Shown piece after piece: positions 4,176 to 51,066 of a stretch of DNA of 64,000 nucleotides. Origin of the DNA: a virus. The DNA lies in IMG/VR virus record IMGVR_UViG_3300027833_000017, one strand, 5' to 3'. The position numbers and the translations under genes are program-made. The notes under the pieces were generated by a model, which was not told where the DNA came from, ran no database searches, and was given only the letters and a program-made list of their open reading frames with translations. The number at the start of each line of letters is the position of its first letter. Within the stretch, counting starts at the first letter, position 1.

Positions 4176-4198
4176 TAAAAATATAATATATAATTAAC

Positions 4199-4516: not shown

Positions 4517-4519
4517 AAC

Positions 4520-7174: not shown

Positions 7175-7244
7175 CTAATTCGTATCTTTACATGTAAACA
7201 AAACGTTGATATATAATATAACTACTAATTAACGTTATAATTAC

Positions 7245-8492: not shown

Positions 8493-9310
8493 TGAGAAAG
8501 GCACTTACTGGAGTTAGTAACAATGTTGCTAAAAATATTGATAAAATAAAAGTCTGGGCTCATAGTTTCGAAGAACAAACTAACGGAGATGCAGTTCTTA
8601 TAGCAGCAGATATGTCTGAAGATGACAAAATGTCATTAGAAACTAATAATATTAAGTATTTTGAGGTAAAAACTGATCAAAACTTAACAATTAACGATAG
8701 TAGACTAAATCATACAGCGAATTGGATAGAAAATAGTGATTATGATGTTTTTATGGTTACTGATGTTTTTGATGTTTGTTTTCAAGGTGATCCATTTGAA
8801 TTAATGGATTTTGAATCTTATGATTTTTTTGCAGCATCTGAAGGTATATTCCATAGAGAAGAGCCATGGAATATGGATGTTATGAATAAAGCATTTCCGG
8901 AATATCATGAATTTATTAAACCATTTGAAGTTGTTTGTAGTGGAGTAATGGGAGGTAAAAAAGATTCTCTAGTAAAAACACTAAGAATGCAACAAAAATT
9001 AGTTGATGGAGCATTACATGGACATGATATTAGAGATCAAGCAGCATTTAATATTCTAATTTATAAAAACCAAATAGATAATTGTAAGATTTTTAAACCA
9101 AATGATGGGTGGGTAATACATTGTTCATTGTCTGGTCCAACATTTCAACATATAAATTGGGGTTTAGGTGATTTAATCAATAGTAGATATGGATTACCTG
9201 TTCTTAAAGGTAATCATTTAGTAGATTCTAATGATAAATTATATAAAATAGCACATCAATATAATAGAATTCCTGAATGGGATGTTAAAATAATAGAAAA
9301 ATATGTCTAA
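8492..9310 (+). CDS. Putative glycosyltransferase
   Basis: TDVFDVCFQGDPF and DQAAFN motifs; located in the GT operon. Confidence 0.55.
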   Translation: MRKALTGVSNNVAKNIDKIKVWAHSFEEQTNGDAVLIAADMSEDDKMSLETNNIKYFEVKTDQNLTINDSRLNHTANWIENSDYDVFMVTDVFDVCFQGDPFELMDFESYDFFAASEGIFHREEPWNMDVMNKAFPEYHEFIKPFEVVCSGVMGGKKDSLVKTLRMQQKLVDGALHGHDIRDQAAFNILIYKNQIDNCKIFKPNDGWVIHCSLSGPTFQHINWGLGDLINSRYGLPVLKGNHLVDSNDKLYKIAHQYNRIPEWDVKIIEKYV

Positions 9311-10028
9311 AAAGATAGTTTGTACATGTGCTAACACTTTTAAATCATATGATTCTTATTGGAAGACAGTAGATTTTGATTTTGAATTCTTATCTGACAG
9401 ATATCCTGTTGGAATTGAGTATGATGAGCAAAAAGTAAGAGATGTTTTTAATTTTAAAGGTGATGTTAGTAAAAAACACTTTTGGAACTCACAAGGAAAT
9501 AGAAATATCATTTGGTTTTATGCACATCTTAGAATGGCATATTATTTTATACTAAATCCAAATGAAGAGTGGTATTGGTTTATGGATGATGACGTAATTT
9601 GTGATAATTGGTCAGAATTCTTTAAAGCATTTGAAAATAATGATGCGGATTTTATTTCTTATTATCTTTTTAAGAATAAGGATGTGAAAAATCAACCAAA
9701 TATACCTGAAATTGATAAAAATACACATAGTAGTACTGCGTGGTTTAGTAGATTTCCAGGGGATGGTGATAATATTGATAAAAGCGATGAATTATTTGGA
9801 TCATTCTTTCCAATAGTTAGATTTTCAAATAAAAGCTTAAAACACTTGTCTAATTTATTAATAAACAAGCAACATGGATACTCAGAAGGATTTGTACCTA
9901 CTATATTGAACAGGGATGGATTTAAATTAGATACAATTTTTAATAATCAGAGCAAGTCAGATCACTTTGATGTAAATAAGATACATATATTACACAAAAA
10001 TATTAAAGTAGATTGGTCATGGATATAA
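9303..10028 (+). CDS. Putative GT-A glycosyltransferase
   Basis: WYWFMDDDV DxD motif; operon context. Confidence 0.5.
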   Translation: MSKKIVCTCANTFKSYDSYWKTVDFDFEFLSDRYPVGIEYDEQKVRDVFNFKGDVSKKHFWNSQGNRNIIWFYAHLRMAYYFILNPNEEWYWFMDDDVICDNWSEFFKAFENNDADFISYYLFKNKDVKNQPNIPEIDKNTHSSTAWFSRFPGDGDNIDKSDELFGSFFPIVRFSNKSLKHLSNLLINKQHGYSEGFVPTILNRDGFKLDTIFNNQSKSDHFDVNKIHILHKNIKVDWSWI

Positions 10029-29966: not shown

Positions 29967-32900
29967 ATGCCAACTGTTTCAAATCAAAACTTAATCGTAG
30001 TATTACCAGAATTAGCTAGGATAGTTAGAGGACAATCATCGAGTATTGGAATCACACTACACCAAGACCACGTAGGTAATCAACTAAACATCGGGGTAAC
30101 CGATAACGTAATCGTAGATGTTTATAATGCTGAAAATCAATTAATATATTCAGTAAGTAAATCTAATGGTACTTTATTATACGGTGCTGCAAACACTGAT
30201 TTACGAGGTGCTATATCACTTGAATTTAGTGCAGAACAAACTGCTGCATTACCATTTGGAGATTTAAATTTTCACGGTGCTATTAAATGTAAAATCACAG
30301 TAGTTAGAGGAATTACTCAAACGCAACTACCAACATTAAAACTTGCCAATATCTATGATGCTGGTGATAAAATAGGTGATATAGTTGCAAGTAGATTCAC
30401 ATTACCTGGTGCTGTATATAAAGTTAAGTCTTTAAGTTCTACAGATAAACCTGCTAGTGGAGAATTAGTTATAAATGACGAAGATCCTAATGGTGTTACT
30501 AAAATTAGAATTGCTTTAACGGACGATAAAGGATATAGAAATAATTATTTAGAGTCTATACTATTAAATAGAATTAATGTTGACGGAGTTAAAGTTTCTT
30601 TATTCTTAACCAATGTAAATAACAATAGTGAATACTCTGCATTTGAAATTAAAACATGGTCATATGTAGATGTATTAAATGTTAATCCTAATAATCCAAT
30701 AAACAACGACTCAAGTGATGCTATTGAATTACACGTACAATCAGAAGGAAATTCATTTATTCCTGGATCTGATTATAAGATCGGAGTAGGTGATGAGCTT
30801 GGTATTTTTAGCGAATCTTATTCTTCACCATCAGCTGGTATTTCAATTATACCACAAGGCGATGTAGCTATTGACGAGGTTAATAGTCTTACGTTTTCAG
30901 GAGGTGCAGTTATTAATAATTTAAATGACGGAAAAGTTGAAGTTGTTTTCCCTTCAGTAACTGTTACAACTTCTGGAACATCTGGTTCTTCAGGAATTGA
31001 TGGAACTTCAGGAATTGACGGTGCTAAAGGTGATCAAGGTGATCAAGGTCTTCAAGGTGAACAAGGTCTAAGGGGTGTCGATGGAACATCTGGTAAAGAT
31101 GGTGAAACAGGAGCACAAGGTGATATTGGTCAAGCTGGAACTTCAGGTACTGATGGAACAAGTGGAGTTGACGGAGCACAAGGTTTAAGAGGATTAGATG
31201 GAACTTCAGGTAAAGATGGTTTAGATGGAACATCTGGAATTAACGGCCAATCTGGAACTTCAGGTATTGACGGTGCTAAAGGTGATGATGGAACTTCAGG
31301 TATTGATGGAGTTGATGGAGTCAATGGAGTCAATGGAGTTGACGGAGCTAAAGGTGATCAAGGTGATCAAGGTATAGCTGGAGCTAAAGGTGATCAAGGT
31401 CTTAAAGGTGATCTAGGTAACACCGGTGTTCAAGGTAACGATGGAACGTCAGGTATTAGTGGAACATCTGGTATTGACGGAAACGATGGAGTTGACGGAA
31501 CAAGCGGAGTTAATGGAGCAGACGGTGCACAAGGTCTTAAAGGTGATCAAGGTGCAAGAGGTGTCGATGGAACATCTGGTAAAGATGGAGTTGACGGAAA
31601 CAATGGTAATGATGGAACTTCAGGTGTTTCAGGTTCTTCAGGAGTTGATGGAACATCTGGTAAAGATGGAGTTGACGGAAACAATGGAGCCAAAGGTGAT
31701 CAAGGTGATCAAGGTCTTCCAGGAAATAACGGAAACGATGGAACTTCAGGAGTTAATGGAACTTCAGGAATAAATGGAACTTCAGGAGTTGATGGAGCCA
31801 AAGGTGATCAAGGTATTACTGGTAACAATGGTGTAGATGGAACTTCTGGAATTAGTGGAACATCTGGAATTGATGGAACTTCAGGTATTAATGGAGTTGA
31901 TGGAAACGATGGAACTTCAGGAACTAATGGTTCTTCAGGAATTAATGGTCTTAAAGGAGATATTGGTCTTAAAGGAGATATTGGTGATAAAGGTGATCCT
32001 GGTAATAATGGAGTTGACGGAAACAATGGAACTTCAGGAATTAGTGGAACTTCAGGAATAAATGGAACATCTGGAATTGATGGAGTTGACGGAAACGACG
32101 GAACTTCAGGACTTTCTGGAACTTCAGGAATAAATGGAACTTCAGGAGTTGATGGAGTTAAAGGTGATCAAGGTGACGCTGGAACTTCAGGAATTAATGG
32201 AGCTAAAGGTGATCAAGGTGACGCTGGAACTTCAGGAGTTGACGGAACATCTGGAATTGACGGAGCTAAAGGTGATCAAGGTGACGCTGGAACTTCAGGA
32301 GTTAATGGAACTTCAGGAGTTGATGGAAACGATGGAACATCAGGAGTTGATGGAACTTCAGGAGTTGATGGAGCTAAAGGTGATCAAGGTGACGCTGGAA
32401 CTTCAGGAACTAATGGTTCTTCAGGAATTAATGGAACTTCAGGAGTTGATGGAAACGATGGAACATCAGGAGTTGATGGAACTTCAGGAGTTGATGGAGC
32501 TAAAGGTGATCAAGGTGACGCTGGAACTTCAGGAGTTAATGGAACTTCAGGAGTTGATGGAAACGATGGAACATCAGGAGTTGATGGAACTTCAGGAGTT
32601 GATGGAGCTAAAGGTGATCAAGGTGACGCTGGAACTTCAGGAACAAATGGTTCTTCAGGAGTTAATGGAACATCTGGAATCAATGGAGTTAAAGGTGATC
32701 AAGGTGACGCCGGAACTTCAGGTATTGATGGAGTTGACGGAGCTAATGGAGCCACTGGACCGCAAGGACCGGAAGGACCACAGGGGCCGGAAGGAGCAGC
32801 TGGAGCAAATGGATCTGGAATTGCAGGAGGAGGAACAACGGGTCAAGCACTTGTTAAATCTTCAAACGTTGATTACGAAGTTGAATGGTCAGACGTTGCA

Positions 32901-33368
32901 ACTGGATCAGGTGGAACTTATTATTGTGTAAGAGCAGAATACACTGCATCGCAAGCTTTAGGTGGGTGTGAATTTATCGATCCAAGTGGATCAGGTGTAT
33001 TTGAAACATCTAACGCATCTATAGGAACACGTGCTGGTGATAATCAAGAATTTTCATTCAGTGGTCAAAATCAACCACCGAAAGCAATTCTTGTATATGC
33101 ATATCAAGCCAACAATTCAAGATATGTTATAACGCATTTAGACGGTGGTGGTAACAACGCATCATTCTATGCACAAGGTATTACAGAATCTGCGCACTCG
33201 TCTAGTTTTAGTATTGGTAATCAAGTTACAACTGATTTATTCACTAACTTTAGTGCAGCTAAAATTAAATTAGATTTAGGTATGGGTAATATCGATGCAG
33301 TAAGAAATGCTGGTGGATTTGGTCAAACAACTAAAGAAGCTCACGCATTTATAATATTCAAATTTTAA
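29967..33368 (+). CDS. Collagen-like fibre protein with many G-X-K-G sites
   Basis: Globular N-terminus, ~620 aa G-X-Y tract ([12 protein letters not shown]), C-terminal domain. Confidence 0.85.
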   Translation: MPTVSNQNLIVVLPELARIVRGQSSSIGITLHQDHVGNQLNIGVTDNVIVDVYNAENQLIYSVSKSNGTLLYGAANTDLRGAISLEFSAEQTAALPFGDLNFHGAIKCKITVVRGITQTQLPTLKLANIYDAGDKIGDIVASRFTLPGAVYKVKSLSSTDKPASGELVINDEDPNGVTKIRIALTDDKGYRNNYLESILLNRINVDGVKVSLFLTNVNNNSEYSAFEIKTWSYVDVLNVNPNNPINNDSSDAIELHVQSEGNSFIPGSDYKIGVGDELGIFSESYSSPSAGISIIPQGDVAIDEVNSLTFSGGAVINNLNDGKVEVVFPSVTVTTSGTSGSSGIDGTSGIDGAKGDQGDQGLQGEQGLRGVDGTSGKDGETGAQGDIGQAGTSGTDGTSGVDGAQGLRGLDGTSGKDGLDGTSGINGQSGTSGIDGAKGDDGTSGIDGVDGVNGVNGVDGAKGDQGDQGIAGAKGDQGLKGDLGNTGVQGNDGTSGISGTSGIDGNDGVDGTSGVNGADGAQGLKGDQGARGVDGTSGKDGVDGNNGNDGTSGVSGSSGVDGTSGKDGVDGNNGAKGDQGDQGLPGNNGNDGTSGVNGTSGINGTSGVDGAKGDQGITGNNGVDGTSGISGTSGIDGTSGINGVDGNDGTSGTNGSSGINGLKGDIGLKGDIGDKGDPGNNGVDGNNGTSGISGTSGINGTSGIDGVDGNDGTSGLSGTSGINGTSGVDGVKGDQGDAGTSGINGAKGDQGDAGTSGVDGTSGIDGAKGDQGDAGTSGVNGTSGVDGNDGTSGVDGTSGVDGAKGDQGDAGTSGTNGSSGINGTSGVDGNDGTSGVDGTSGVDGAKGDQGDAGTSGVNGTSGVDGNDGTSGVDGTSGVDGAKGDQGDAGTSGTNGSSGVNGTSGINGVKGDQGDAGTSGIDGVDGANGATGPQGPEGPQGPEGAAGANGSGIAGGGTTGQALVKSSNVDYEVEWSDVATGSGGTYYCVRAEYTASQALGGCEFIDPSGSGVFETSNASIGTRAGDNQEFSFSGQNQPPKAILVYAYQANNSRYVITHLDGGGNNASFYAQGITESAHSSSFSIGNQVTTDLFTNFSAAKIKLDLGMGNIDAVRNAGGFGQTTKEAHAFIIFKF

Positions 33369-38646: not shown

Positions 38647-41370
38647 ATGTCTCAATTGAAACTAAAACAAATACTTGACTTTTTATCTTCTTCACCAGCA
38701 ACAGGTGAAGTATTGTCATATAATGCAAGTACCGGAAAGTATGAAAACCAACAATTACCAAATACGTTTGGACTTCCTTATGTTTATAATAACGCAACAA
38801 ATCCCACGACAGTTTCTTCTGGTGATTTAGCGTTTGATAACCCTAGTAATCCTAGTAAAATAATTGTAAGTGAAACTAATGCTAGAGGTGGTTCAGCAAC
38901 CGTAACATTAAATGCTGCAGTCGCTTCATCTAATAATTATAAATCTATTATTGTATTAGCAAAATCAACTGATGGTAATGCAAATAAATCATTCTATGTA
39001 ACAGGAAACACAACTGCTTCTGGACAAAGAACATTTAACTTACAACCTATTTCAAGTTCTAATTGGAATAATGTTAGTGATAATGATTCTTTATTTATGT
39101 TTATTCAACCTATTGGTGATGTTGGAACATCAGGAACTTCGGGATCAAATGGATCAAGTGGAAGTTCAGGAACTGATGGAACGAGTGGTGTAAGTGGGAC
39201 TTCAGGTTCTTCGGGAACAAACGGTTCAAGTGGAAGTTCAGGAACTAACGGAACTTCAGGAACCGATGGAACTTCAGGATCAAGTGGATCAAGTGGAAGT
39301 TCAGGAACTGATGGTACTAGTGGAACTAACGGAACTTCAGGAACGGATGGTTCTAGTGGATCTTCAGGAACGGATGGAACAAGTGGAGTTGATGGTGTTA
39401 AAGGTGACAATTATAGTGGAGCAACTTTATCTGGAAATAATTTAATATTAACTCATTCTCAAAATGGCAATGAAATTGTAGGTAGAGTAGTATATGTTGG
39501 AACATCAGGAACTGATGGATCAAGCGGAAGTTCAGGTTCAAGCGGATCTTCAGGAATTACAGGTACAATTGCAGTAGGAACAGTATCTACTGGATTAGAA
39601 AATACACCGGTAAGTGTTACTAATACTGGAACCTCAACTGCAGCTGAATTTGATTTTACTATTCCTGTTGGTGCAACTGGAGCAAAAGGTAATCCTGGAA
39701 CTCCAGCAATTAATGGAACTAACGGATCTTCTGGATCGAGCGGTGTTAAAGGACAAAAAGGAGCTCCAGGTACAAGCGGTACTGATGGAACTTCAGGAAC
39801 GAATGGAACTTCAGGAACGAATGGAACAAATGGAAGTTCGGGTTCAAGCGGTTCTTCAGGAACTGATGGAACTTCAGGAACGAATGGAACTTCAGGAACG
39901 AATGGAACTTCAGGAACTGACGGATCAAGTGGAACTTCAGGAACTGATGGAAGTTCAGGAACTGATGGAACTTCAGGAACGAATGGAACATCAGGGACTA
40001 ACGGATCAAGTGGATCTTCAGGTTCAAGTGGAAGTTCAGGAACTGATGGAACTTCAGGAACTGATGGAACTTCAGGAACGAATGGAACTTCAGGAACGAA
40101 TGGAAGTTCAGGTTCTTCAGGAACTGACGGTACAAGTGGAACAAACGGAAGTTCAGGAACTGATGGAACTAGCGGTATCAATGGTACAAGTGGAACGAAT
40201 GGAACAAACGGAAGTTCGGGTTCTTCAGGAACGAATGGAACAAACGGATCTTCTGGATCAAGTGGATCTTCAGGTGCACAAGGTAATCCAGGTTGGGGTG
40301 TTTCAATGCAAGGACAAGTAGCTACATCATCAAATTTACCAACAAGTGGTAATTCTGACGGTGATGCATATATAGTACAGTCAGACGATTCTCTTTGGGT
40401 ATTTACACAAGCAGATGGTTGGATTGGAGGTGGTTCTATTCAAGGACCAGCTGGTTCTTCAGGGACTAATGGAACAAATGGAAGTTCAGGTTCTTCAGGA
40501 ACTGATGGAAGTTCAGGTTCAAGTGGAAGTTCAGGAACTGATGGAACTTCAGGAACTAACGGAACTTCAGGAACCGATGGAACTTCAGGATCAAGTGGAT
40601 CAAGTGGAAGTTCAGGAACTGATGGAACGTCTGGTACAAATGGTACAAGTGGAACGAATGGTACAAGCGGATCTTCAGGTTCAAGCGGAAGTTCAGGAAC
40701 TGACGGTACTAGTGGAACTAACGGAACTTCAGGTTCTTCAGGAACTGATGGAACTAGTGGAACAAACGGAACTTCAGGTTCAAGTGGATCTAGCGGTTCT
40801 TCAGGAACGAATGGAACTTCAGGAACGAATGGAACTTCAGGAACGAATGGAACTTCAGGAACAAACGGAAGTTCGGGTTCTTCAGGAACGAATGGAACTA
40901 ACGGATCTTCTGGATCAAGTGGTTCTTCAGGTTCTTCAGGTTTAAAAGGTAATACTGGTACTTCTAATACCTATGCAACTGCAATGAATCAACATACAAA
41001 AACTGATTCAAATGTTGAGCATCATGATTTATATTTAACAGGTGCTTTAAAAAGAAATATTATATCGGTTAACGGCGTTGGAGGTGTTTATGACATTAAG
41101 CCTAAACTAGGTGACGCATTTGCATTTACAGCAACGGGATTAATTGATATTACAATGTCTAACATAGGTAACGACAACATAGGTCAATCTGGAACTATAG
41201 TAATTCATAACGGTGCAGGTGCAGGATACAATCCATTACCATCTTATATGAAAACACCCTCAGGTGCTGACATTCAATGGGTAACTACTCCTGGTGCAGT
41301 ATCTATTATATCATATATTATAATAGATGTTGACGCAGTATTAGTTAACTACATTGGAAATTTTGCGTAA
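38647..41370 (+). CDS. Collagen-like (GTS/GSS/GTN) fibre protein
   Basis: Long G-X-Y tracts; FDFTIPVG hinge; GDAYIVQSDDSLW insert shared with the 3..4175 protein. Confidence 0.85.
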   Translation: MSQLKLKQILDFLSSSPATGEVLSYNASTGKYENQQLPNTFGLPYVYNNATNPTTVSSGDLAFDNPSNPSKIIVSETNARGGSATVTLNAAVASSNNYKSIIVLAKSTDGNANKSFYVTGNTTASGQRTFNLQPISSSNWNNVSDNDSLFMFIQPIGDVGTSGTSGSNGSSGSSGTDGTSGVSGTSGSSGTNGSSGSSGTNGTSGTDGTSGSSGSSGSSGTDGTSGTNGTSGTDGSSGSSGTDGTSGVDGVKGDNYSGATLSGNNLILTHSQNGNEIVGRVVYVGTSGTDGSSGSSGSSGSSGITGTIAVGTVSTGLENTPVSVTNTGTSTAAEFDFTIPVGATGAKGNPGTPAINGTNGSSGSSGVKGQKGAPGTSGTDGTSGTNGTSGTNGTNGSSGSSGSSGTDGTSGTNGTSGTNGTSGTDGSSGTSGTDGSSGTDGTSGTNGTSGTNGSSGSSGSSGSSGTDGTSGTDGTSGTNGTSGTNGSSGSSGTDGTSGTNGSSGTDGTSGINGTSGTNGTNGSSGSSGTNGTNGSSGSSGSSGAQGNPGWGVSMQGQVATSSNLPTSGNSDGDAYIVQSDDSLWVFTQADGWIGGGSIQGPAGSSGTNGTNGSSGSSGTDGSSGSSGSSGTDGTSGTNGTSGTDGTSGSSGSSGSSGTDGTSGTNGTSGTNGTSGSSGSSGSSGTDGTSGTNGTSGSSGTDGTSGTNGTSGSSGSSGSSGTNGTSGTNGTSGTNGTSGTNGSSGSSGTNGTNGSSGSSGSSGSSGLKGNTGTSNTYATAMNQHTKTDSNVEHHDLYLTGALKRNIISVNGVGGVYDIKPKLGDAFAFTATGLIDITMSNIGNDNIGQSGTIVIHNGAGAGYNPLPSYMKTPSGADIQWVTTPGAVSIISYIIIDVDAVLVNYIGNFA

Positions 41371-41395: not shown

Positions 41396-44300
41396 ATGAA
41401 GAATATAGGATTTTCAAGAATCGACTTTTGGAGTACCGGAAGTGCACAGAATACATCTAAGGGTACACTCGTAGCTAAGAATACTACTTGGGCTACTTCC
41501 AAAACTACATCTGAAAATAGAAATACTTCGAGAACTACTAACAAAGTACGAAATACTAGTCAATCCACGGTGACAACATGGATAACTACATGGGCAACTA
41601 GTAAATCGACAACAACAACTTTCAATACATCTCGTAGTACTAATACTGTATATGCAACTTCTAGATCAACGACAACATCGTGGACTACATCATGGAGCAC
41701 TTCTAGAGAAACATCTTTAGAAACTGATAGAACTACTACAACAACATGGTCGACTTCTAAAAACACGTCACAATCAACTGAGAGGGCTACAACTACTACA
41801 TGGACAACTAGTTGGACAACTAGTCAATCCACATTGTATCCTGTTGAAACAACCTGGAACACAAGTCAATCCACGTCTAGAAGTACAACTACATCATACA
41901 TTACATATTGGACAACTTCTTGGAATACAAGTAAATCAACGACAACTTCTTATATTACGACATATACAACGTCATGGTCAACTAATAGATCTACAACAAC
42001 AGTGTATAATACAACGTGGATCACTAGTCAAACGACAACAAGATCTACTAATCGCAGTACTACAACAACATTTAACACAAATCAGTCGACATCTAGATCA
42101 ACAACGACTACATATAATACAACTTGGATTACATCTCAGACAACTTCTAGAACCACTGAACATTCAACAACGACCACGTTTAGTACTAGTCAATCAACAT
42201 CTCGTTCGACAACAACGACATATAATACAACGTGGCTCACTAGTCAAACAACAAGTAAAGTAACTAGTAAATCGACAACTACAACTTTTAATACAAGTCA
42301 GTCAACAAGTAAATCTACAGTAACTACATGGACAACAACTTGGTCTACTAGTAAATCAACTTCTACGACAACGACTAAATCTACGACAACGACTTTTAAT
42401 ACAAGTCAGTCAACAAGTAAATCTACAGTAACTACATGGACAACAACTTGGTCTACTAGTAAATCAACGTCTAAGGCGACTAGTAAAAATACCACAACAA
42501 CATGGGTAACAAGTAGAGGAACAGAACATTCAACAACGACTACGTTTACAACAACATGGTCAACAAGTAAATCTACAACTACTACTTTTGACACAGCTTG
42601 GACTACTTCATGGAATACAACTAGATCAACGAATCGTTCTACAACAACTACGTTTAATACTAGTCAATCAACTTCGCACACCACAACAACTGCATGGACA
42701 ACTACTTGGGTAACAAGTCGAGGAACTAATAGAGGAACTAGTAGAAATACAACAACAACATTTGCAACTAGTAGAAGCACAGAGCATACGACAACAACTA
42801 CGTTTAATACAACATGGTCAACTAGTAAATCGACGACAACTACATGGACAACCACATTTGGTACAACCTTTAATACAAGTCAGTCAACGACTAAATCTAC
42901 AACAACTACATTTAATACAACGTGGTCAACTAGTAAATCTACTACAACTTCATGGACAACTTCATGGAACACAACTGTGTTGACTTCCAAATCAACGTCC
43001 AAAAACACAACGACTACGTTTAATACAACATGGTCAACTAGTAAATCTACCACAACAACATTTGCTACTAGTAAATCGACGACGACAACATTTAACACAA
43101 CTCAGTCTACTAGTAAGTCAACAACAACACAGTGGAACACAACTAAAGCAACAACGACGACGTGGAACACAACTAAAGAAACAACGACTGTATACAATAC
43201 ATCTTGGAATACAACTAAATCAACAACAACGACGTGGAACACGACTAAATCAACAACGACTACATGGAATACAAGTCAGTCTACAACGACTACATTTAAA
43301 ACAACATGGAATACAACTAAATCAACAACGACCGTATACAACACGACTAAATCAACAACGACTACATGGAATACAAGTCAGTCTACAACTACAGTGTTCA
43401 ATACATCTTGGAATACAACTAGATCAACGACGACGTCGTTCAACACGACTAAATCAACAACGACTACATGGAGTACAAGCCAGTCAACGGAGCATTCTAC
43501 CACAACAACATTTGCTACTAGTAAATCTACTACAACGACGTGGAACACAACTAAAGCAACAACGACTGTATACAATACATCTTGGAATACAACTAAATCA
43601 ACAACAACGACGTTCAACACGACTAAATCAACAACGACTACGTTTGGTACGTCTCAAGGAACTACTAGAAATACAACAACAACATTTGCAACTAGTAAAT
43701 CTACAACGACTACATGGAGTACTAGTAGAAGCACAGAGCATTCTACAACAACAACATTTGCTACTAGTAAATCGACAACAACAACATGGTCAACTAGTAA
43801 ATCGACGACAACTGCATGGACAACTTACTGGATCACTAGTAGAAATACAACAACAACATTTGCAACTAGTAGATCGACGACAACAACATTTGCAACTAGT
43901 AGATCTACTACAACGACGTACACGACCACTTTTTCAACTAGTAAATCTACTAATACTAGGTTTAATACGTCTAGGGTAACTGACAGAAATACAAGTCAGT
44001 CAACTATTACAAAGGTTTCTACAGGATATTCTAGATCAACAACTAAAGCAACATCATGGATTACTTTAGTTCCTGCAGATAATAGTTCAGGTGGTGGTGC
44101 AGGGCTTTTAACTTCCTGGAATACATCAGTTTCATATATCACAAGCTACAATACAGCAGTGTATGTCAACACATCTCGTGGAACATATAGAAACACACTA
44201 GCGGAATGTATAGTTGAAGGAACACTAGTACATATTGCTGAAGGAATACAAAGACCGGTTGAAGCGTTAGTATATGGTCAAAGTATTTTAACTATGGATG

Positions 44301-44758
44301 GAGCATTTAATACAGATGACATGACTGTATTACCAACAATTAGGGAAGAAGAAGTATACACAAATACATTATCTAATGAACATAGTATTGCCGGTATTTG
44401 GAGAGCAGACGTTATAGGAACAGTTAGTATAAATAATGACCAATTAAGAACTACCATGGCACATATACATATTATAAAAAGAGATGGTATGTGGCAAGCA
44501 AAACTAGCGGAGCACCTAGAGATTGGTGATGTTATGTTTAAAATGAATTATGGAGAATTTTTGATAGAATCTTTAGAAATAGATGAAGTTAATCAATATA
44601 CTGTTTATAAATTAGATGTAGAAGCTAATGATACATTCTTTGCAAATGGAATTTTAACACATAATAACAAAGAAGAACCGTGTGAGCCAGGTGATGCTTG
44701 TGATCCGCGTTCTATATGTTATTCTGAGCGTGACTGTGAGATGGAAGGTATAAAATAA
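41396..44758 (+). CDS. Giant Thr-rich repeat protein A with C-terminal Hint domain
   Basis: Aromatic/basic tetrad repeats aa 62-873; Hint CIVEGT (44207) to FFANGILTHN (44665); Cys-rich tail. Confidence 0.85.
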   Translation: MKNIGFSRIDFWSTGSAQNTSKGTLVAKNTTWATSKTTSENRNTSRTTNKVRNTSQSTVTTWITTWATSKSTTTTFNTSRSTNTVYATSRSTTTSWTTSWSTSRETSLETDRTTTTTWSTSKNTSQSTERATTTTWTTSWTTSQSTLYPVETTWNTSQSTSRSTTTSYITYWTTSWNTSKSTTTSYITTYTTSWSTNRSTTTVYNTTWITSQTTTRSTNRSTTTTFNTNQSTSRSTTTTYNTTWITSQTTSRTTEHSTTTTFSTSQSTSRSTTTTYNTTWLTSQTTSKVTSKSTTTTFNTSQSTSKSTVTTWTTTWSTSKSTSTTTTKSTTTTFNTSQSTSKSTVTTWTTTWSTSKSTSKATSKNTTTTWVTSRGTEHSTTTTFTTTWSTSKSTTTTFDTAWTTSWNTTRSTNRSTTTTFNTSQSTSHTTTTAWTTTWVTSRGTNRGTSRNTTTTFATSRSTEHTTTTTFNTTWSTSKSTTTTWTTTFGTTFNTSQSTTKSTTTTFNTTWSTSKSTTTSWTTSWNTTVLTSKSTSKNTTTTFNTTWSTSKSTTTTFATSKSTTTTFNTTQSTSKSTTTQWNTTKATTTTWNTTKETTTVYNTSWNTTKSTTTTWNTTKSTTTTWNTSQSTTTTFKTTWNTTKSTTTVYNTTKSTTTTWNTSQSTTTVFNTSWNTTRSTTTSFNTTKSTTTTWSTSQSTEHSTTTTFATSKSTTTTWNTTKATTTVYNTSWNTTKSTTTTFNTTKSTTTTFGTSQGTTRNTTTTFATSKSTTTTWSTSRSTEHSTTTTFATSKSTTTTWSTSKSTTTAWTTYWITSRNTTTTFATSRSTTTTFATSRSTTTTYTTTFSTSKSTNTRFNTSRVTDRNTSQSTITKVSTGYSRSTTKATSWITLVPADNSSGGGAGLLTSWNTSVSYITSYNTAVYVNTSRGTYRNTLAECIVEGTLVHIAEGIQRPVEALVYGQSILTMDGAFNTDDMTVLPTIREEEVYTNTLSNEHSIAGIWRADVIGTVSINNDQLRTTMAHIHIIKRDGMWQAKLAEHLEIGDVMFKMNYGEFLIESLEIDEVNQYTVYKLDVEANDTFFANGILTHNNKEEPCEPGDACDPRSICYSERDCEMEGIK

Positions 44759-44812
44759 GGTATAAAATGATTAAAGAATTTAAATATATAAAAAAACAAC
44801 AGAGATAGAGCT

Positions 44813-47635
44813 ATGCCTACTACTTTTTTTAATACTACTTGGTTAACCGCTGGATCTAGGAGCACGTTGAAGACGACTAGCTTTTCTCGAACAACTTCAT
44901 TATACACGTCATATAATAGGGCAACTTCTAGGAATACGGCAAAAACTACCTATTGGAATGTACTTACAGATAAATCTACTTCAACGGGGTGGACAACTAA
45001 AGTTACTACGACATGGTTCACAGATAAAAATACGACGACGACATATAATACAAGTAAGAGTACATCTAAGGCGACTACGACGACGTGGAATACATCTAAG
45101 GCGACTACGACGACGTGGAATACATCTAGAACAACCGAAACAAAGTGGAACACAAGTCAAGCTACATCTAGGGCGACAACAACAACATTTAATACAACAC
45201 GTGCAACCACGACTACATATAACACAACACGTGCAACCACGACTACATATAACACATCTTGGAATACATCACGCGCAACTACAACGACGTGGAACACAAC
45301 TAAAACAACGTTAACTTCGTGGACTACTTCGTGGAATACAACACGTGCAACCACAACAACATTTTCAACTAGTAGATCAACAACGACTACATTTAGTACA
45401 AGTCAGTCAACGGAGCATTCTACCACGACTACGTGGGCAACTAGTAAAGCAACAACGACGACGTGGAACACAACTAAAACAACAACGACTGTATACAATA
45501 CATCTTGGAATACAACTAAATCGACAACAACAACATGGTTAACTAGTAAAGCAACAACGACTACGTTTAGTACAAGTCAGTCAACGGAGCGTACAACCAC
45601 GACTACGTGGGCAACTAGTAAATCGACAACGACTACGTATAATACGTCTAAATCTACTACAACTACATTTGCAACTAGTAAGAATACAACGCGTACAACC
45701 ACGACTACGTGGGCAACTAGTAAATCGACAACGACTACGTTTAATACGTCTAAATCTACTACAACAACATTTATAACTAGTCAAAGCACAGAGCATACGA
45801 CAACAACTACGTTTAATACTAGTAAATCTACTACAACGACGTTTATAACTAGTAAATCTACTACAACTAATTGGACTACAAAATGGTCAACTAGTAAATC
45901 TACTACAACGACATGGAACACAACTAAAGCAACAACGACTACATGGAATACAAGTCAGTCAACTAGCAAATCCACTGTAACTACATGGACAACTTACTGG
46001 AACACCGTAAGAGGAACTAGTAGAGGAACTAATAAATCTACAACGACAACTTTTAATACAAGCCAGTCAACGAGTAAATCGACTACGACAACATTTACGA
46101 CAACCTGGTCAACATCAAGAAATACAACTAGATCAACTAGTAAATCGACTACGACAACATTTAATACAAGTCAGTCAACTTCTAGGTCAACTACTACGGT
46201 TTATAACACATCATGGAACACAACTAAAACAACGTTAACTTCGTGGACTACTTCATGGACTACCTCTTGGAACACAACCAGAGGCACGAATAAAACCACA
46301 ACAACAGTTTACAATACAACGTGGTCAACTAGCAAATCCACTGTAACTACATTTAATACTACTTGGATAACATCGCAAAATACAAAGAGATCTACTTCTA
46401 GAACAACGACTACTACTTTTAATACAAGTCAGTCAACTTCTAGGTCAACGACTACGTCCTATAACACATCTTGGAATACTACATTAATAACTGGAACTGT
46501 ATGGATTACATCGTGGGTGACAACGTTTAATACTAATCAGTCAACGACTAAATCTACAACAACTACATTTAATACAACGTGGTCAACTAGTAGAGCTACG
46601 ACGACGAGTTATACTACCTCATGGACAACGACGTTTAATACTAATCAGTCAACGACTAAATCTACAACAACTACATTTAATACAACGTGGTCAACTAGTA
46701 GAGCTACGACGACGAGTTATACTACCTCATGGACAACTTCATGGAACACGACTAGAGGAACAGAGCATGTGACTACTACAGTTTTTAACACATCATGGAA
46801 TACGACTAGAGCAACGACTACAGTTTACAATACATCATGGACAACTTCATGGAACACGACTAGAGGAACAGAACATTCAACAACGACTACGTTTACAACA
46901 ACATGGTCAACAAGTAAATCTACAGTAACTACGTTCAATACTTCATGGACTACTTCATGGAATACAACTAGGTCAACAGAGCATTCAACTACGACTACGT
47001 TTAATACGTCCCAGTCTACGAATCATGGAACGTCTCATTCGACAGTAACTATATGGAGTACATCCAGGGGAACTAATAGGGGAACAGAACATGCAACGAC
47101 AACTACATGGACAACAACTTGGGAAACTAGTAGAATTACAAACTATACGCGTACAACATCGTGGACTACACAATATCAAACTAGTAAGTCAACTATAACT
47201 ACATTTAATACAACTTGGTTGACAACGTTTAATACTAATCAGTCAACGACAACTTCATGGACTACATCATGGGTGACAACATTTAATACGTCTCAAACAA
47301 CGTCTAAAACGACTACGACTACATTTAATACAAGTCACTCGACTACGACCACATTTAATACGACTAGATCAACTACGACTACATTTAATACAAATGCAGC
47401 GACATCTAAATCGACAACGACTATATGGTCAACTATCTATAGTGTTACTACTTCGTGGAATACCGCATGGAACACAACAACAACGTGGAACACAACGAGA
47501 TCTACAACAAGTGCTATTACTACAACGTGGAGTACAGATTACGAAGTACAAGAAACTTGGTATTCAACTAACGAACCACTAAATGTTTATAATACAAATA
47601 GACAATGGAGAGTAAACAGTTATAATGGTAACTAG
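44813..47635 (+). CDS. Giant Thr-rich repeat protein B (mirror partner of A)
   Basis: Same tetrad grammar aa 60-871, in reversed and complemented order relative to A. Confidence 0.85.
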   Translation: MPTTFFNTTWLTAGSRSTLKTTSFSRTTSLYTSYNRATSRNTAKTTYWNVLTDKSTSTGWTTKVTTTWFTDKNTTTTYNTSKSTSKATTTTWNTSKATTTTWNTSRTTETKWNTSQATSRATTTTFNTTRATTTTYNTTRATTTTYNTSWNTSRATTTTWNTTKTTLTSWTTSWNTTRATTTTFSTSRSTTTTFSTSQSTEHSTTTTWATSKATTTTWNTTKTTTTVYNTSWNTTKSTTTTWLTSKATTTTFSTSQSTERTTTTTWATSKSTTTTYNTSKSTTTTFATSKNTTRTTTTTWATSKSTTTTFNTSKSTTTTFITSQSTEHTTTTTFNTSKSTTTTFITSKSTTTNWTTKWSTSKSTTTTWNTTKATTTTWNTSQSTSKSTVTTWTTYWNTVRGTSRGTNKSTTTTFNTSQSTSKSTTTTFTTTWSTSRNTTRSTSKSTTTTFNTSQSTSRSTTTVYNTSWNTTKTTLTSWTTSWTTSWNTTRGTNKTTTTVYNTTWSTSKSTVTTFNTTWITSQNTKRSTSRTTTTTFNTSQSTSRSTTTSYNTSWNTTLITGTVWITSWVTTFNTNQSTTKSTTTTFNTTWSTSRATTTSYTTSWTTTFNTNQSTTKSTTTTFNTTWSTSRATTTSYTTSWTTSWNTTRGTEHVTTTVFNTSWNTTRATTTVYNTSWTTSWNTTRGTEHSTTTTFTTTWSTSKSTVTTFNTSWTTSWNTTRSTEHSTTTTFNTSQSTNHGTSHSTVTIWSTSRGTNRGTEHATTTTWTTTWETSRITNYTRTTSWTTQYQTSKSTITTFNTTWLTTFNTNQSTTTSWTTSWVTTFNTSQTTSKTTTTTFNTSHSTTTTFNTTRSTTTTFNTNAATSKSTTTIWSTIYSVTTSWNTAWNTTTTWNTTRSTTSAITTTWSTDYEVQETWYSTNEPLNVYNTNRQWRVNSYNGN

Positions 47636-47758: not shown

Positions 47759-48670
47759 ATGGAAATGTTTAACAAAAAGGTGCTAAATGAAAGAATTGGG
47801 CCGCTAAAGAAAAATACAAAACTAGAACCACTCGAACAAGTGGAACGATATGTTTTAAGAAAATGTAGAGAACTAGGATTAGAACACAGTTATGATGTTA
47901 TAGCAGAAGAAATGCCGTACTTTAAAACAATGGGATATACAGAATATGCTACTTGTTTTTTAATGCAACCACTAAATCTCAAAATGAGAAGAGAACAAAT
48001 TGCTGATGCTTTAGTACATGATGTCGAACACGTCTATGATTGGGTATCTTACTTTAAAGAAAATATCGAAAAAGATCAAGCTAATAAATATCAAAATCGC
48101 AAGAAAGATTTCGACAGATATGAAGATAAAAGCACTTTGGTTATTTTACCAGGTTCAAATAAGCTTAAAGAAAATTGTTGTTTAAATAAATTAATTGAAG
48201 TTGCTGAGAAACATAAAGGTGATGTTTATTTTAAACCACATCCTATTACTACACATGCAGTTATAGGTGAAATTAAAGATTTATTTGGTGAAGAATCTAT
48301 TTTACCAAGAGACATAGATCTTTATTACTTTTTACAAAAAGCTAAAACAGTATATAGTACACACATTAGTGAAAGCGCATTATATTCTGTTGTTCTTGAA
48401 AAAGAAGTTTATCCAATGGATGTGTGGAATAATATAAGCAGAGGATCTTTTTATACTATAAACTCTAGTCTTTATGATAATAAAGAAAGCGGTGCAGAAT
48501 GGATTAATCAAGTTTTTTCTAGTTACAAATCTGGAATTATAAATCCAGCAATTGATGAAGATTGGAAGGGCAAAGTGGATGATTACATGAATTATATCTA
48601 TGAAAAAAGAGAATATTATAAGGGTTGGTTTATAGACGCTCCACCTAAAGTTAAAAGAAATAAGAACTAA
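47759..48670 (+). CDS. Putative GT-B glycosyltransferase with HP motif (KpsS/KpsC-like)
   Basis: YFKPHP ... LQKAKTVYSTHISESALYSVVLEKEV resembles the capsule-synthesis C-terminal motif. Confidence 0.45.
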   Translation: MEMFNKKVLNERIGPLKKNTKLEPLEQVERYVLRKCRELGLEHSYDVIAEEMPYFKTMGYTEYATCFLMQPLNLKMRREQIADALVHDVEHVYDWVSYFKENIEKDQANKYQNRKKDFDRYEDKSTLVILPGSNKLKENCCLNKLIEVAEKHKGDVYFKPHPITTHAVIGEIKDLFGEESILPRDIDLYYFLQKAKTVYSTHISESALYSVVLEKEVYPMDVWNNISRGSFYTINSSLYDNKESGAEWINQVFSSYKSGIINPAIDEDWKGKVDDYMNYIYEKREYYKGWFIDAPPKVKRNKN

Positions 48671-48718: not shown

Positions 48719-49738
48719 ATGAGAATATTATTTTATGCGGGTTATCAAAAAAACAAATTTGATAGCAATACCAGTATTGGATTAGCAGGAACTGAAATTG
48801 CTATAATTAATATAGCTAAAGAGATAGTTAAATTTGGTTATAAGGTTGTGGTTTCTGGTGAAGTAAAAGATTCTGGTTTAATTGATGGTGTAGAATGGAT
48901 ATCAACACATAATGTTCATGAAAAATATTTTGATCAGTTTGATTATATTATATCTGCAAGTTATATCCATTTTCTAAAAGAGTTTGAAGGGTATTCAGCA
49001 AAGAAAGTATTTTGGGCACATAATACACATCATCACCCATGGTGGAATCACAAAGTGTTAGGAGACGCAAACCTTTTAATACAACGAGTTGATCATACAA
49101 TTTGTTTGACTAATTGGCATAAGAATCATTGGGCACACACATATAATATACCTTTAAATAAAATCTCAGTGATTGGTAATGCCATTGATCCTTCGACATT
49201 TAATGGTACTCCTGAAAAAATAAAAGGTAAATTCATATATAGTTCTGCACCTGAACGTGGCTTATTAGAATTATTAAAAAACTGGCCAAAGATAAAAGAT
49301 ATAATGCCACATGCAACATTAGACATATATTCTCCAGGCTATTCTATAGCAAATCATACTGACTATTCATTTAATAAGTTTGAAGAAGTTACGTGTCATG
49401 GTACAGTAGATCAAGAAACATTACACGCTGCAATGTTACGTGCAGAATATTGGTGTTATGTAACTGATTATGAAGAAACATATTGTATTACTGCGCTTGA
49501 AATGCAATATGCCAAAGTATTACCTATTGTTACCAAGGTAGCAGCCTTAAAAGAGACTGTAAATAGTGGAGTTATCTTAGAAAGAAATGAAACAAATTGG
49601 AATCAGGTTATACAAATACTAGGTACACTAAGTAGTGGACTTAAAGATAAATCAATTAATGATGCTTATAAATGGTCTAAACAACAAACATGGAATGCCA
49701 GATCATATGATTGGAAAAACATATTAGAATCTATATGA
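48719..49738 (+). CDS. GT4-like glycosyltransferase
   Basis: GLAGTE, YSSAPERGL, EETYCITALEMQ, AALKETV. Confidence 0.8.
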   Translation: MRILFYAGYQKNKFDSNTSIGLAGTEIAIINIAKEIVKFGYKVVVSGEVKDSGLIDGVEWISTHNVHEKYFDQFDYIISASYIHFLKEFEGYSAKKVFWAHNTHHHPWWNHKVLGDANLLIQRVDHTICLTNWHKNHWAHTYNIPLNKISVIGNAIDPSTFNGTPEKIKGKFIYSSAPERGLLELLKNWPKIKDIMPHATLDIYSPGYSIANHTDYSFNKFEEVTCHGTVDQETLHAAMLRAEYWCYVTDYEETYCITALEMQYAKVLPIVTKVAALKETVNSGVILERNETNWNQVIQILGTLSSGLKDKSINDAYKWSKQQTWNARSYDWKNILESI

Positions 49739-51066
49739 AAATAGATAAAATTTATATTATAAGTTTGAATGCCGGAGATCCAAGTATTCAGAGAAACATT
49801 GCCACCAGGGTAGATCAACTTGGTATGCCATATTCTGTAGAATGGGAAATAGTTCAAGGTTTTGATGGAACTTCAGGTAATTTATTAGATGGACATAGTG
49901 TATATAATTTATGGAATTTAGGATCTGATTCATGGAATGATTGGTGGAAAAGAGATGTTACTGGTGGAGAAGCAGGTTGTGCAATTAGTCACTTAAGTAT
50001 ATGGAACAATATAATAGAAAACAATGTCAATTGTGCATTAATATTAGAAGATGATTTTGTTTCAGTAGCTCCGCTTACAAATCCAGTTATTCCAAATACA
50101 GAATGGGATATTGCATTTTTAGGTAGAAATGCTATATGTTCTAAGGATGAAAAAAGAATTGATGCAAGTAATAAATGGGTAACAGCTCTTAGTAGTTATA
50201 ATACACACGCGTATGTAATTAAAAGAGACACTGCAAAAATCCTAGTCAATGATTATAACTTTAAACAAAATCTAATTGCACCCGACGAATTCTTAACAGC
50301 AACATATACAGAGCATAGAAGACAAGATATTAATATACTGTTTCCACCAAAACTTAAAGCGATAGCTCCAGTTGATAATTGGATAGAACAAAATAGACCG
50401 CATGAACAATCTATGACAGAACCACATGATGCGAATATTAATTTATTGAAAACACAACCGTATTTCGAAATATTAGATGATAGTGATTGGGATTCATGGA
50501 AATCAAAATATGTAAACGAAACGGTGTCTAAGGGTGAATATGATTTAATGGTAGATGATATAGGAAATAATATTTATGAGTTTCCATTATTTACAGAAAA
50601 ATTCTGTAAAGAAGCCGTAGGTTTGGCAGAAGTTATGGATAAATGGACAAAAGACAGACACGAATTTTATCCAACAAACGATGTCTTATTACCAGAAATA
50701 GGATTAGATCATATTTATAATAGAGTTGTAAGAGAAATAGTTTCTCCTCTTTGTATACATTTATGGGAATTAGAAGGTGCAGGTTGGGACAATATGGATA
50801 CTGAAAACTTTATGGTAAGATACACTACTGATAGACAATCTCATTTAAGTTTACATCACGACTTTAGTCATATTACAATGGTAGTAAAATTAAACGATGA
50901 GTTTGATGGAGGCGGTACATGGTTTCCAAAATATAAAATATTATCAAATCCAAAATTAGTGGGCACTGCAACCATTCACCCAGGAATGATTACACATAAA
51001 CATGGTGCCAGACCAATACACAGTGGGAAAAGATACATTAATGTATCATTTATGAGAAAGAAATAA
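49735..51066 (+). CDS. GT25 (collagen galactosyltransferase-like) + PLOD-type lysyl hydroxylase fusion
   Basis: N-half: IYIISL, GEAGCAISH..IW, LILEDD, WDIAFLGR, AYVI, DEFL. C-half: FPLFTEKFC, NFMVRY..Q.HL..HHD, GGGT.F, HPG.ITH.H, G.RYI.VSF. Confidence 0.8.
   Translation: MKIDKIYIISLNAGDPSIQRNIATRVDQLGMPYSVEWEIVQGFDGTSGNLLDGHSVYNLWNLGSDSWNDWWKRDVTGGEAGCAISHLSIWNNIIENNVNCALILEDDFVSVAPLTNPVIPNTEWDIAFLGRNAICSKDEKRIDASNKWVTALSSYNTHAYVIKRDTAKILVNDYNFKQNLIAPDEFLTATYTEHRRQDINILFPPKLKAIAPVDNWIEQNRPHEQSMTEPHDANINLLKTQPYFEILDDSDWDSWKSKYVNETVSKGEYDLMVDDIGNNIYEFPLFTEKFCKEAVGLAEVMDKWTKDRHEFYPTNDVLLPEIGLDHIYNRVVREIVSPLCIHLWELEGAGWDNMDTENFMVRYTTDRQSHLSLHHDFSHITMVVKLNDEFDGGGTWFPKYKILSNPKLVGTATIHPGMITHKHGARPIHSGKRYINVSFMRKK

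What the first reader, a model, noticed from the sequence alone, without database searches (positions are those of the whole stretch)
41579..47425. Two adjacent Thr-rich proteins are 'reverse complements' of each other at the amino-acid level: a candidate sequence-coded antiparallel protein duplex
Seen: both proteins parse into segments of n aromatic tetrads ([WFY]-x-T-x), m basic/polar tetrads ([KRQH]-x-T-x) and a 2-residue spacer, giving lengths of 10, 14, 18 or 22. Protein A aa 62-873 (nt 41579-44014) and protein B aa 60-871 (nt 44990-47425) are both 812 aa and 56 segments. A's length series (14,10,10,22,18,14,18,18,18,22,14,22,14,22,14,22,14,22,14,14,22,14,22,14,14,22,14,22,14,10,14,10,10,14,...,14,10,10,14,18) is B's series read backwards. 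One irregular junction (A LYPVE / B NYTR) needs V treated as the aromatic position. An (n,m) segment in A faces an (m,n) segment in B; for example A YNTTWITSQTTSRTTEHSTTTT (2,3) faces B YNTSWTTSWNTTRGTEHSTTTT (3,2). Key residues obey i(A)+j(B)=928 (F856/K72, Q868/W60, W62/K866), with few exceptions. The pattern continues into A's basic N-flank and B's Trp-rich C-flank. It is not a DNA inverted repeat: both genes are on + and Thr-coded. Inference: the chains co-evolve as an antiparallel beta-ribbon (~270 nm if fully extended), zipped by cross-strand aromatic/cation pairs, with an aperiodic barcode that fixes the register. I know of no description of such a pairing code.
Basis: partly seen in the sequence, partly recalled or inferred. 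Interest (0 to 1): 0.97.

Follow-up and report, generated by a model that had tools for sequence, protein, structure and literature searches.

The report
Mirror-coded two-protein phage fibre
Two neighbouring threonine-rich proteins of an uncultured T4-like marine phage match residue by residue when one is read backwards (aromatic opposite basic, Thr opposite Thr, about 870 positions, no gap), and insertions and swaps are mirrored between the two genes in dozens of related phages, which points to an undescribed, sequence-coded way of zipping two chains into a very long fibre.

Summary
Scoring aromatic-versus-basic matches between A (41396-44758) and reversed B (44813-47635) gives one peak at i+j=928: 180 matches, next best 99, segment-shuffled controls 63.7±5.3. 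There is no DNA inverted repeat.

The gene pair is conserved upstream of one conserved gene in about 40 IMG/VR phage contigs. Repeat lengths range from about 200 to 1400 residues, and each pair keeps one antiparallel diagonal. Close relatives show mirrored indels (+24 and +10 aa in A, +10 and +24 in B) and compensatory swaps (R·W to W·Q).

One contig fuses A and B into a single self-complementary 1297-aa chain. The cultured Stenotrophomonas phage DLP6 carries a self-complementary hairpin on a baseplate-wedge protein in the gp7 position.

In this clade A ends in a Hint/BIL self-processing domain. Other clades have a Peptidase_S74 chaperone instead.

Direct antiparallel A–B pairing in a virion fibre is strongly supported by covariation. 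The beta-ribbon geometry and the oligomeric state (AB or (AB)3) are inferred.

Literature searches found no description. This scan had already noted the same design in other genomes.

The parts
41396..44758 (+). Gene A, 1120 aa: Thr-rich fibre chain with a C-terminal self-processing domain
   Evidence: ORF list and translation. Conserved with its partner in IMG/VR relatives.
41396..41452 (+). A residues 1-19, conserved N-terminal motif (MKNIGFSRIDFW...). Proposed virion-proximal attachment end (inference).
   Evidence: The same motif starts A in distant loci: MKNLGFTKKDFW, MKNFLAFKIDLW, MKQIGFSRINLW.
41453..44065 (+). A residues about 20-890: mirror-coded repeat region of [WFY]-x-T-x and [KRQH]-x-T-x tetrads in a^n b^m segments plus a 2-residue spacer. 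All key residues sit at even positions.
   Evidence: Parse. Antiparallel alignment at i+j=928. Shuffle control.
44207..44665 (+). A residues 938-1090: Hint/bacterial-intein-like domain (Cys938 ... T-x-x-H ... THN1090). The following residue is Asn, so no +1 nucleophile.
   Evidence: Motif positions. Alignment A2 has invariant T100 and H103 (positions in its first row, block B), and every member with a complete domain ends in THN. The profile matches PDB Hint/BIL chains: 6tmm 3.6e-7, 2lwy 'bacterial intein-like domain' 1.3e-4, several inteins. Pfam hits are below cut-off.
44666..44755 (+). A residues 1091-1120: short Cys-rich tail after the Hint domain
   Evidence: Translation. Cys-rich tails are also present in L001 and L010-L013.
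44813..47635 (+). Gene B, 940 aa: Thr-rich partner chain, in the same reading frame as A and 54 nt downstream of its stop
44924..47536 (+). B residues about 38-908: mirror-coded region complementary to A 890-20
47537..47632 (+). B C-terminal tail (…NRQWRVNSYNGN), conserved in the clade. It lies next to A's N-terminus in the antiparallel arrangement.
47759..48670 (+). Conserved 303-aa neighbour found directly downstream of B in all related loci. Predicted glycosyltransferase-like fold (beta-Kdo-transferase type).
   Evidence: 80 loci found with it as query. AF2 model from a 24-sequence alignment, pLDDT 79.9. Foldseek top hits WbbB, KrkA and KpsC, E 2e-4 to 1e-3, TM about 0.33. Atlas lead: Capsule_synth on 25% of one cluster. 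PHROG 26179, unknown function.

Best explanation
A and B are the two chains of one virion fibre. They lie side by side in opposite directions over about 870 residues in an extended, beta-type conformation. All coded residues sit at the same alternate positions, so they share one face. On that face every fourth residue of A is an aromatic (W/F/Y) or a K/R/Q/H that sits opposite a residue of the other class in B. Thr sits opposite Thr in between. The other face pairs N with S and T with S/T. Each chain is written as runs of n aromatic and m basic tetrads closed by a 2-residue spacer. The irregular series of (n,m) values acts as a barcode, so only the cognate partner in one register matches (180 matches, against at most 99 in any other register and at most 92 for self-pairing). 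A's conserved N-terminus and B's conserved C-terminus form one end, probably the virion-proximal end. A's C-terminus and B's N-terminus form the other end, where a natural fusion places a hairpin turn. That end carries a removable self-processing module: Hint/BIL here, a Peptidase_S74 intramolecular chaperone in another clade. The module probably helps nucleate assembly and is then cleaved off. The conserved neighbouring glycosyltransferase-like gene and further glycosyltransferases suggest the Ser/Thr surface is glycosylated. Shown: the complementarity, its co-evolution, and the fused forms. Inferred: physical contact, beta conformation, cleavage, glycosylation and location on the virion. Whether the unit is one AB duplex or three of them in a six-stranded needle is open.
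For: There is a single peak at i+j=928, z about 22 over segment shuffles, and an ungapped alignment with 180 aromatic/basic and 303 Thr/Thr pairs. Pair preferences are specific: H with Y (15 of 15 His), Q with W (33 of 34 paired Gln), F only with K/R, and N with S and E with N on the other face. In 30 distant loci there is 1 aromatic-aromatic and about 3 basic-basic pairs against about 2400 aromatic-basic pairs. Pairs of very different length (436/512 to 1425/1429 aa) each keep one diagonal. Indels are mirrored: L010/L011 have +24 aa at about A645 and +10 at about A756, matched by +10 at B170 and +24 at about B267. L012 has +44 and +36 in both genes at mirrored sites. Compensatory swaps occur, e.g. 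A778·B150 is R·W here, W·Q in L010/L011 and W·R in L013. L017 fuses A and B into one 1297-aa ORF, self-complementary with about 97 pairs and a GGDAKAKAAE turn. Its N-terminus is A-like and its C-terminus B-like. DLP6 protein AMQ65900.1, in the gp7 position of the baseplate cluster, has a self-complementary 630-aa C-terminal region (peak 80 against 28.2±2.4 for block shuffles). Nine related proteins also show self-complementary peaks (52-86 against 40-52 for the next best), but these were not tested against shuffles. The context is fibre-like: collagen-like tail-fibre proteins lie upstream, a Peptidase_S74 domain sits on A in relatives, and the phage is T4-like by a gp23 hit.
Against: AlphaFold2 on a stop-read-through A790-Hint-B140 construct gave pLDDT 28.8, which says nothing either way. 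A free two-stranded ribbon hundreds of nm long has no precedent, and it would expose about 11% aromatic residues. There is no proteomic or EM evidence that A and B are in the virion. Some distant pairs need 1-2-residue offsets. The A-B fusion is seen on one contig only. The family-wide pair matrix used alignments scored for aromatic/basic pairs, which is slightly circular, though the alignments are almost ungapped.
Confidence: 0.75

Rival explanations
1. The same antiparallel A-B pairing, but the biological unit is a trimer of duplexes, (AB)3. This would be a six-stranded antiparallel needle like the tip of the T4 long tail fibre gp37, with the outgoing and returning strands on two polypeptides. 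One face would be buried around a threefold axis.
For: In one clade A carries a Peptidase_S74 intramolecular chaperone with the SDR-x-LKK motif; 5 of 8 members score over the Pfam cut-off. By established knowledge this domain folds trimeric phage fibres and spikes and then cleaves itself off. gp37 is described as a six-stranded antiparallel needle made by three chains (PMC9659904). Burying one face would solve the problem of exposed aromatics. Fused single-chain forms have the out-and-back topology of gp37.
Against: The window's A has a Hint domain, not S74. The gp37-type HxH iron sites are absent: 1 HxH in A, 0 in B. The DLP6 hairpin sits on a gp7-position wedge protein; from my memory of the T4 baseplate, gp7 is present as one chain per wedge, which would favour a single hairpin. 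No second register is detectable in the sequence.
Confidence: 0.35
2. A and B do not touch. Each is an extended or disordered, heavily glycosylated mucin-like brush. The mirror pattern would arise because both are laid in opposite orientation along a third periodic component, or are read by the same modifying enzymes.
For: Composition is about 45% Thr and 15-18% Ser. A conserved glycosyltransferase-like neighbour and several other glycosyltransferases are present. There are many N-x-S/T sequons: 49 in A and 55 in B.
Against: A shared template or shared enzyme predicts identity, not class complementarity (aromatic opposite basic, with 1 aromatic-aromatic pair in about 2400). It does not predict specific H·Y and Q·W pairs or compensatory swaps. 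No candidate third aperiodic component exists. Fusion into one self-complementary chain is what is expected of direct partners.
Confidence: 0.06
3. The pattern is a by-product of DNA-level processes (inverted duplication, antisense relation, repeat slippage) or of low-complexity composition, with no meaning for the proteins.
For: Both genes contain tandem DNA repeats of 30-174 nt. One 108-nt unit in B is duplicated at 100% identity.
Against: There is no long inverted repeat. Thr opposite Thr cannot come from a reverse complement in any frame. Shuffles that keep composition and segment grammar give 63.7±5.3 against 180. The complementarity holds in pairs only 56-62% identical to this one (L012, L013) and in more distant pairs whose neighbouring conserved gene is only 55-65% identical.
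Confidence: 0.01

Closest known systems
Needle domain of the T4 long-tail-fibre tip, gp37 (Bartual et al. 2010, as described in PMC9659904)
   Same: A long thin phage fibre segment built of antiparallel beta strands that run out to a tip and back. The fused relatives (L017, DLP6 AMQ65900.1) have the same out-and-back single-chain topology. Both are tail or baseplate associated in T4-like phages.
   Different: gp37 is one chain used three times and is held by HxH-iron sites. Here the out and back strands are two separate gene products. There is no HxH and no sequence similarity to any PDB chain. The coded region is 870 residues long (my recollection, not checked here, is that the gp37 needle is far shorter). 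Register is set by an aromatic/basic barcode. Trimer state is unknown.
Heterospecific coiled-coil zippers (charge-coded partner and register choice)
   Same: It works like one. Two chains of the same repeat type choose partner, orientation and register through complementary residues at fixed repeat positions.
   Different: The repeat has period 2/4 and is Thr-rich, which suggests an extended beta-type strand, not an alpha-helical heptad. Pairs are aromatic-cation or aromatic-amide, not charge-charge. The barcode is aperiodic over hundreds of residues.
Designed beta-hairpins with cross-strand Trp-Lys/Arg (cation-pi) and Thr-Thr pairs, and tryptophan zippers (recalled from the peptide-design literature, not tested here)
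   Same: The same kinds of cross-strand pair are known to stabilise two-stranded antiparallel sheets.
   Different: Those are peptides of 12-20 residues. Nothing comparable in length, in two chains, or natural was found.
Phage fibres with C-terminal self-cleaving assembly modules (Peptidase_S74 intramolecular chaperone of K1F endosialidase and T5 pb1)
   Same: A homologues in one clade carry this module. The window's A carries another self-processing module (Hint/BIL) at the same place.
   Different: The window's A has no S74 domain. As far as I could find, a Hint domain has not been described as a fibre maturation module.

Membership tests
Hint / bacterial intein-like (BIL) domain (A residues 938-1090) | N-terminal Cys/Ser nucleophile at the first domain residue | tested here: met
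   Cys938 in E-CIVEGTLVHI. It is conserved in L001, L010-L013 and L015.
Hint / bacterial intein-like (BIL) domain (A residues 938-1090) | Block B T-x-x-H and C-terminal His-Asn | tested here: met
   T100 and H103 of alignment A2's first row are invariant in all 8 rows. The domain ends in THN in all seven members that have a complete domain.
Hint / bacterial intein-like (BIL) domain (A residues 938-1090) | Significant similarity to known Hint domains | tested here: met
   The profile of A2 matches PDB 6tmm/6y75 at 3.6e-7, 2lwy 'bacterial intein-like domain' at 1.3e-4, and inteins at 2e-3 to 3e-2. Single-sequence Pfam hits are below cut-off (18.3 and 17.6 bits).
True (splicing) intein | Cys/Ser/Thr at the +1 position after His-Asn | tested here: not met
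   The +1 residue is N here, and K, R or F in relatives. Cleavage is therefore expected rather than splicing (inference).
Peptidase_S74 intramolecular chaperone | PF13884 match at the C-terminus with the S-D-x-R-x-K cleavage motif | tested here: not met
   Absent from the window's A. Present in A of the L029 clade: 5 of 8 over cut-off, motif FSDRSLKKDI.
T4 gp37-type needle | HxH motifs that coordinate iron along the axis | tested here: not met
   1 HxH in A and 0 in B. No PDB sequence match.
T4 gp37-type needle | Homotrimer giving six antiparallel strands | not testable with these tools
The only hint is the S74 domain in relatives.
TxT ice-binding / antifreeze-type beta-solenoid | Constant-length coils (about 12-15 residues) that stack TxT motifs | tested here: not met
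   Segment lengths vary aperiodically between 10, 14, 18 and 22. The complementarity is between chains, not between successive coils.
Mirror-coded Thr-rich fibre pair (family defined here and in earlier notes of this scan) | Two adjacent same-strand Thr-rich ORFs with one antiparallel aromatic/basic diagonal, upstream of the conserved 303-aa gene | tested here: met
   Window pair. About 40 IMG/VR loci.

The most novel reading that the evidence does not exclude
These phages use a protein analogue of a nucleic-acid duplex. Two beta-type strands would recognise each other antiparallel through a small pairing alphabet: W·Q, Y·H, F/Y/W·K/R, T·T, N·S. An aperiodic 'sequence' of segment lengths would set partner and register over hundreds of nanometres. 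The two strands evolve by mirrored indels and compensatory swaps, much as RNA helices do. Such a code would be directly usable to design addressable protein fibres.
Probability: 0.55. Interest if true: 0.95.

Novelty: categorically new. Interest (0 to 1): 0.9.

Why it matters
If the two chains pair as the covariation says, this would be, as far as I could find, the first natural example of a long hetero-duplex of beta-type strands whose partner choice and register are written in an aperiodic residue code. It would add a design principle for protein fibres and nanomaterials alongside coiled coils and collagen. It would explain a large, unannotated family of giant Thr-rich ORFs in marine T4-like phages. 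It would also give sequence-only rules (mirror complementarity) for finding interacting fibre chains. The cultured phage DLP6 makes it testable in the laboratory.

Tried and rejected
- AlphaFold2 was run on a single chain made by reading the three stops between A and B as Gly (A790-Hint-B140, P0006). It gave pLDDT 28.8 and pTM 0.17, which is uninformative.
- A DNA inverted-repeat explanation is rejected, and a reverse-complement coding relation is rejected because Thr faces Thr.
- Self-pairing of A or B and parallel pairing are rejected: 88, 92 and at most 72, against 180.
- Pfam and PHROGs give nothing for the repeat regions of A and B, and there is no PDB sequence relative.
- tblastn of B against cultured phages found no match, with the low-complexity filter on.
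- The Hint domain as a locus query found only the near-identical contig.
- A search for further A-B fusions with the L017 junction found only the same contig.
- Five literature searches for a description of such a fibre or code found nothing relevant. The DLP6 paper does not mention the Thr-rich region.
- A second register, which would indicate a six-stranded tube, cannot be separated from the tetrad grammar by sequence alone, so I did not pursue it.


Full report
**What is there**

The window is part of a large T4-like phage known only from metagenomes.
- The closest held record, IMGVR_UViG_3300009495_000010, is 96% identical over this stretch.
- A 150-kb relative carries a gp23-type capsid gene.

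ORF A (41396-44758, 1120 aa) and ORF B (44813-47635, 940 aa) lie on the + strand. Two collagen-like proteins with tail-fibre PHROG matches lie upstream. A conserved 303-aa gene and several glycosyltransferases lie downstream.

**Check of the observation**

Both proteins parse into runs of aromatic tetrads, then basic tetrads, then a 2-residue spacer, and all key residues sit at even positions.

| Comparison | Matches |
|---|---|
| A vs reversed B, aromatic opposite basic, i+j=928 | 180 |
| Next best register | 99 |
| Same-class pairing, reversed | ≤72 |
| Forward (same-direction) comparison, same-class matches | ≤91 |
| 2000 shuffles of A's own segments, best register | mean 63.7, sd 5.3, highest 89 |
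| A-A / B-B antiparallel | 88 / 92 |
| Parallel pairing | ≤72 |

- The alignment is ungapped from about A20 to A890 and has 303 Thr-Thr pairs.
- No DNA inverted repeat longer than 22 nt exists.
- Because Thr faces Thr, no reverse-complement reading can produce the pattern.

The pairing is finer than "aromatic versus basic":
- His pairs only with Tyr.
- Gln pairs almost only with Trp.
- Phe pairs only with Lys or Arg.

On the other face, Asn pairs with Ser and Glu with Asn. The duplex is therefore coded on both faces.

**Co-evolution**

With the conserved downstream gene as query I fetched 80 IMG/VR loci. Wherever enough upstream DNA is present there are two Thr-rich ORFs.
- Their lengths range from 281/412 to 1425/1429 aa.
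- Each pair has one dominant antiparallel diagonal over the whole repeat region, with at most a few offsets of 1-2 residues.
- In 30 distant loci, the key face holds about 2400 aromatic-basic pairs, 1 aromatic-aromatic pair and about 3 basic-basic pairs.

Close relatives show the events directly:

| Relative | Change in A | Mirrored change in B |
|---|---|---|
| L010 / L011 (82% identical) | +24 aa near A645; +10 aa near A756 | +24 aa near B267 (mirror about A660); +10 aa at B170 (mirror A758) |
| L012 | +44 aa; +36 aa | +44 aa; +36 aa at mirrored sites |

Compensatory swaps occur as in RNA helices. For example, A778·B150 is R·W here, W·Q in L010/L011 and W·R in L013.

**Fused forms**

Contig L017 has a single 1297-aa ORF where others have two genes.
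- Its N-terminus is A-like and its C-terminus is B-like.
- The two halves are complementary at one sum (about 97 pairs) around a short GGDAKAKAAE linker.
- This fusion was found on one contig only.

A homology search with B independently returned the "baseplate wedge subunit protein" of the cultured Stenotrophomonas phage DLP6 (AMQ65900.1).
- It sits in the gp7 position after gp6.
- Its last 630 residues are self-complementary around a turn near residue 975: peak 80, against 28.2±2.4 for block shuffles.
- Nine related proteins from other sources also show self-complementary peaks (52-86 against 40-52 for the next best), though these were not tested against shuffles.

Such single-chain hairpins are what is expected if A and B are physical partners, with A's C-terminus next to B's N-terminus.

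**The ends**

A's N-terminal motif and B's C-terminal tail are conserved. The opposite end varies by clade:

| Clade | What sits at A's C-terminus / B's N-terminus |
|---|---|
| Window clade | Hint/BIL domain on A: Cys938, T-x-x-H, THN1090, no +1 nucleophile; profile E 3.6e-7 to PDB Hint chains; followed by a Cys-rich tail |
| Second clade | Peptidase_S74 intramolecular chaperone on A |
| Third clade | A ends in a Gly-rich CxR[GN]C tail; a separate ORF between A and B joins a guanidinoacetate-methyltransferase-like domain (PDB 1p1b, 3e-15) to a Hint-like half |
| L055 | B has a globular insert of about 170 aa near its N-terminus |

Known fibres carry their self-cleaving module at the distal C-terminus. 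By analogy I infer that A runs outward from the virion and B runs back.

**Neighbour**

The conserved 303-aa protein folds confidently with a 24-sequence alignment (pLDDT 79.9). It resembles beta-Kdo transferases (WbbB, KrkA, KpsC; E about 2e-4 to 1e-3, TM about 0.33), and the Atlas lead to Capsule_synth agrees. Glycosylation of the Ser/Thr-rich fibre is plausible but untested.

**Mechanism and limits**

The best reading is direct antiparallel pairing of A and B in an extended beta-type fibre. Partner and register would be fixed by the aperiodic barcode. I hold this at about 0.75.
- Physical contact is inferred from covariation and from the fusions.
- The conformation is inferred from the period-2 pattern.
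- The oligomeric state is open. The S74 domain points to a trimer of duplexes like the gp37 needle (PMC9659904). The gp7-position hairpin of DLP6 points to a single duplex.

**Comparison and novelty**

- There is no Pfam or PHROG family for the repeats and no PDB relative.
- Five literature searches found no description.
- The closest known objects are the gp37 needle (same topology in the fused forms, but a homotrimer with HxH-iron sites, which are absent here) and heterospecific coiled coils (same logic, different fold).
- Earlier notes of this scan (e1-5343396, e1-5366186) reached the same "mirror-coded fibre" reading on other genomes.
- This report adds the family-wide test, the mirrored indels and swaps, the finer pair code, the fused forms, the cultured-phage example and the variable end modules.

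Noticed in passing
window 4520-7174 (+): A second protein of 884 aa ends in the same kind of Hint-like C-terminus (…YKIDVEENDTYIANEIITHN-RK…). This phage may therefore use Hint domains as a general C-terminal module on large, probably structural, proteins.
   Followed up: no
L018:4233-5282 (+), between A and B in one clade: A 349-aa protein joins a guanidinoacetate-N-methyltransferase-like domain (PDB 1p1b, E 3e-15) to the C-terminal half of the Hint-like domain. It could methylate the Arg/Lys key residues of the fibre, which is speculation.
   Followed up: partly
A C-termini in L014, L018, L021, L026, L037, L045, L053, L061, L078: In the clade with the methyltransferase ORF, A ends in a conserved Gly-run followed by C-x-R-[GN]-C-[IQMN] and the stop codon. 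Its function is unknown.
   Followed up: no
window 46523-46737 (B) and 42227-42501 (A): A 108-nt (36-aa) unit is duplicated at 100% DNA identity in B. The mirrored duplicated unit in A is only 86-87% identical. This suggests either recent gene conversion in B or staggered co-expansion of the two genes.
   Followed up: no
L055 (A 1241-4816, B 5893-9942): A has recurrent one-residue bulges at YSSH motifs relative to B. B carries a globular insert of about 170 aa near its N-terminus, possibly a tip or receptor-binding domain.
   Followed up: partly
window 49711-51066 (+): A GT25 glycosyltransferase is fused to an OGFOD2/PLOD-like oxygenase domain, next to collagen-like proteins (864-4175, 29967-33368, 38647-41370). 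This looks like a collagen-modifying enzyme set in a phage. Earlier notes of this scan also flagged it.
   Followed up: no
L029:5872-6438 (+): A 188-aa ORF with no family match lies between A (with S74 domain) and B in the S74 clade.
   Followed up: no
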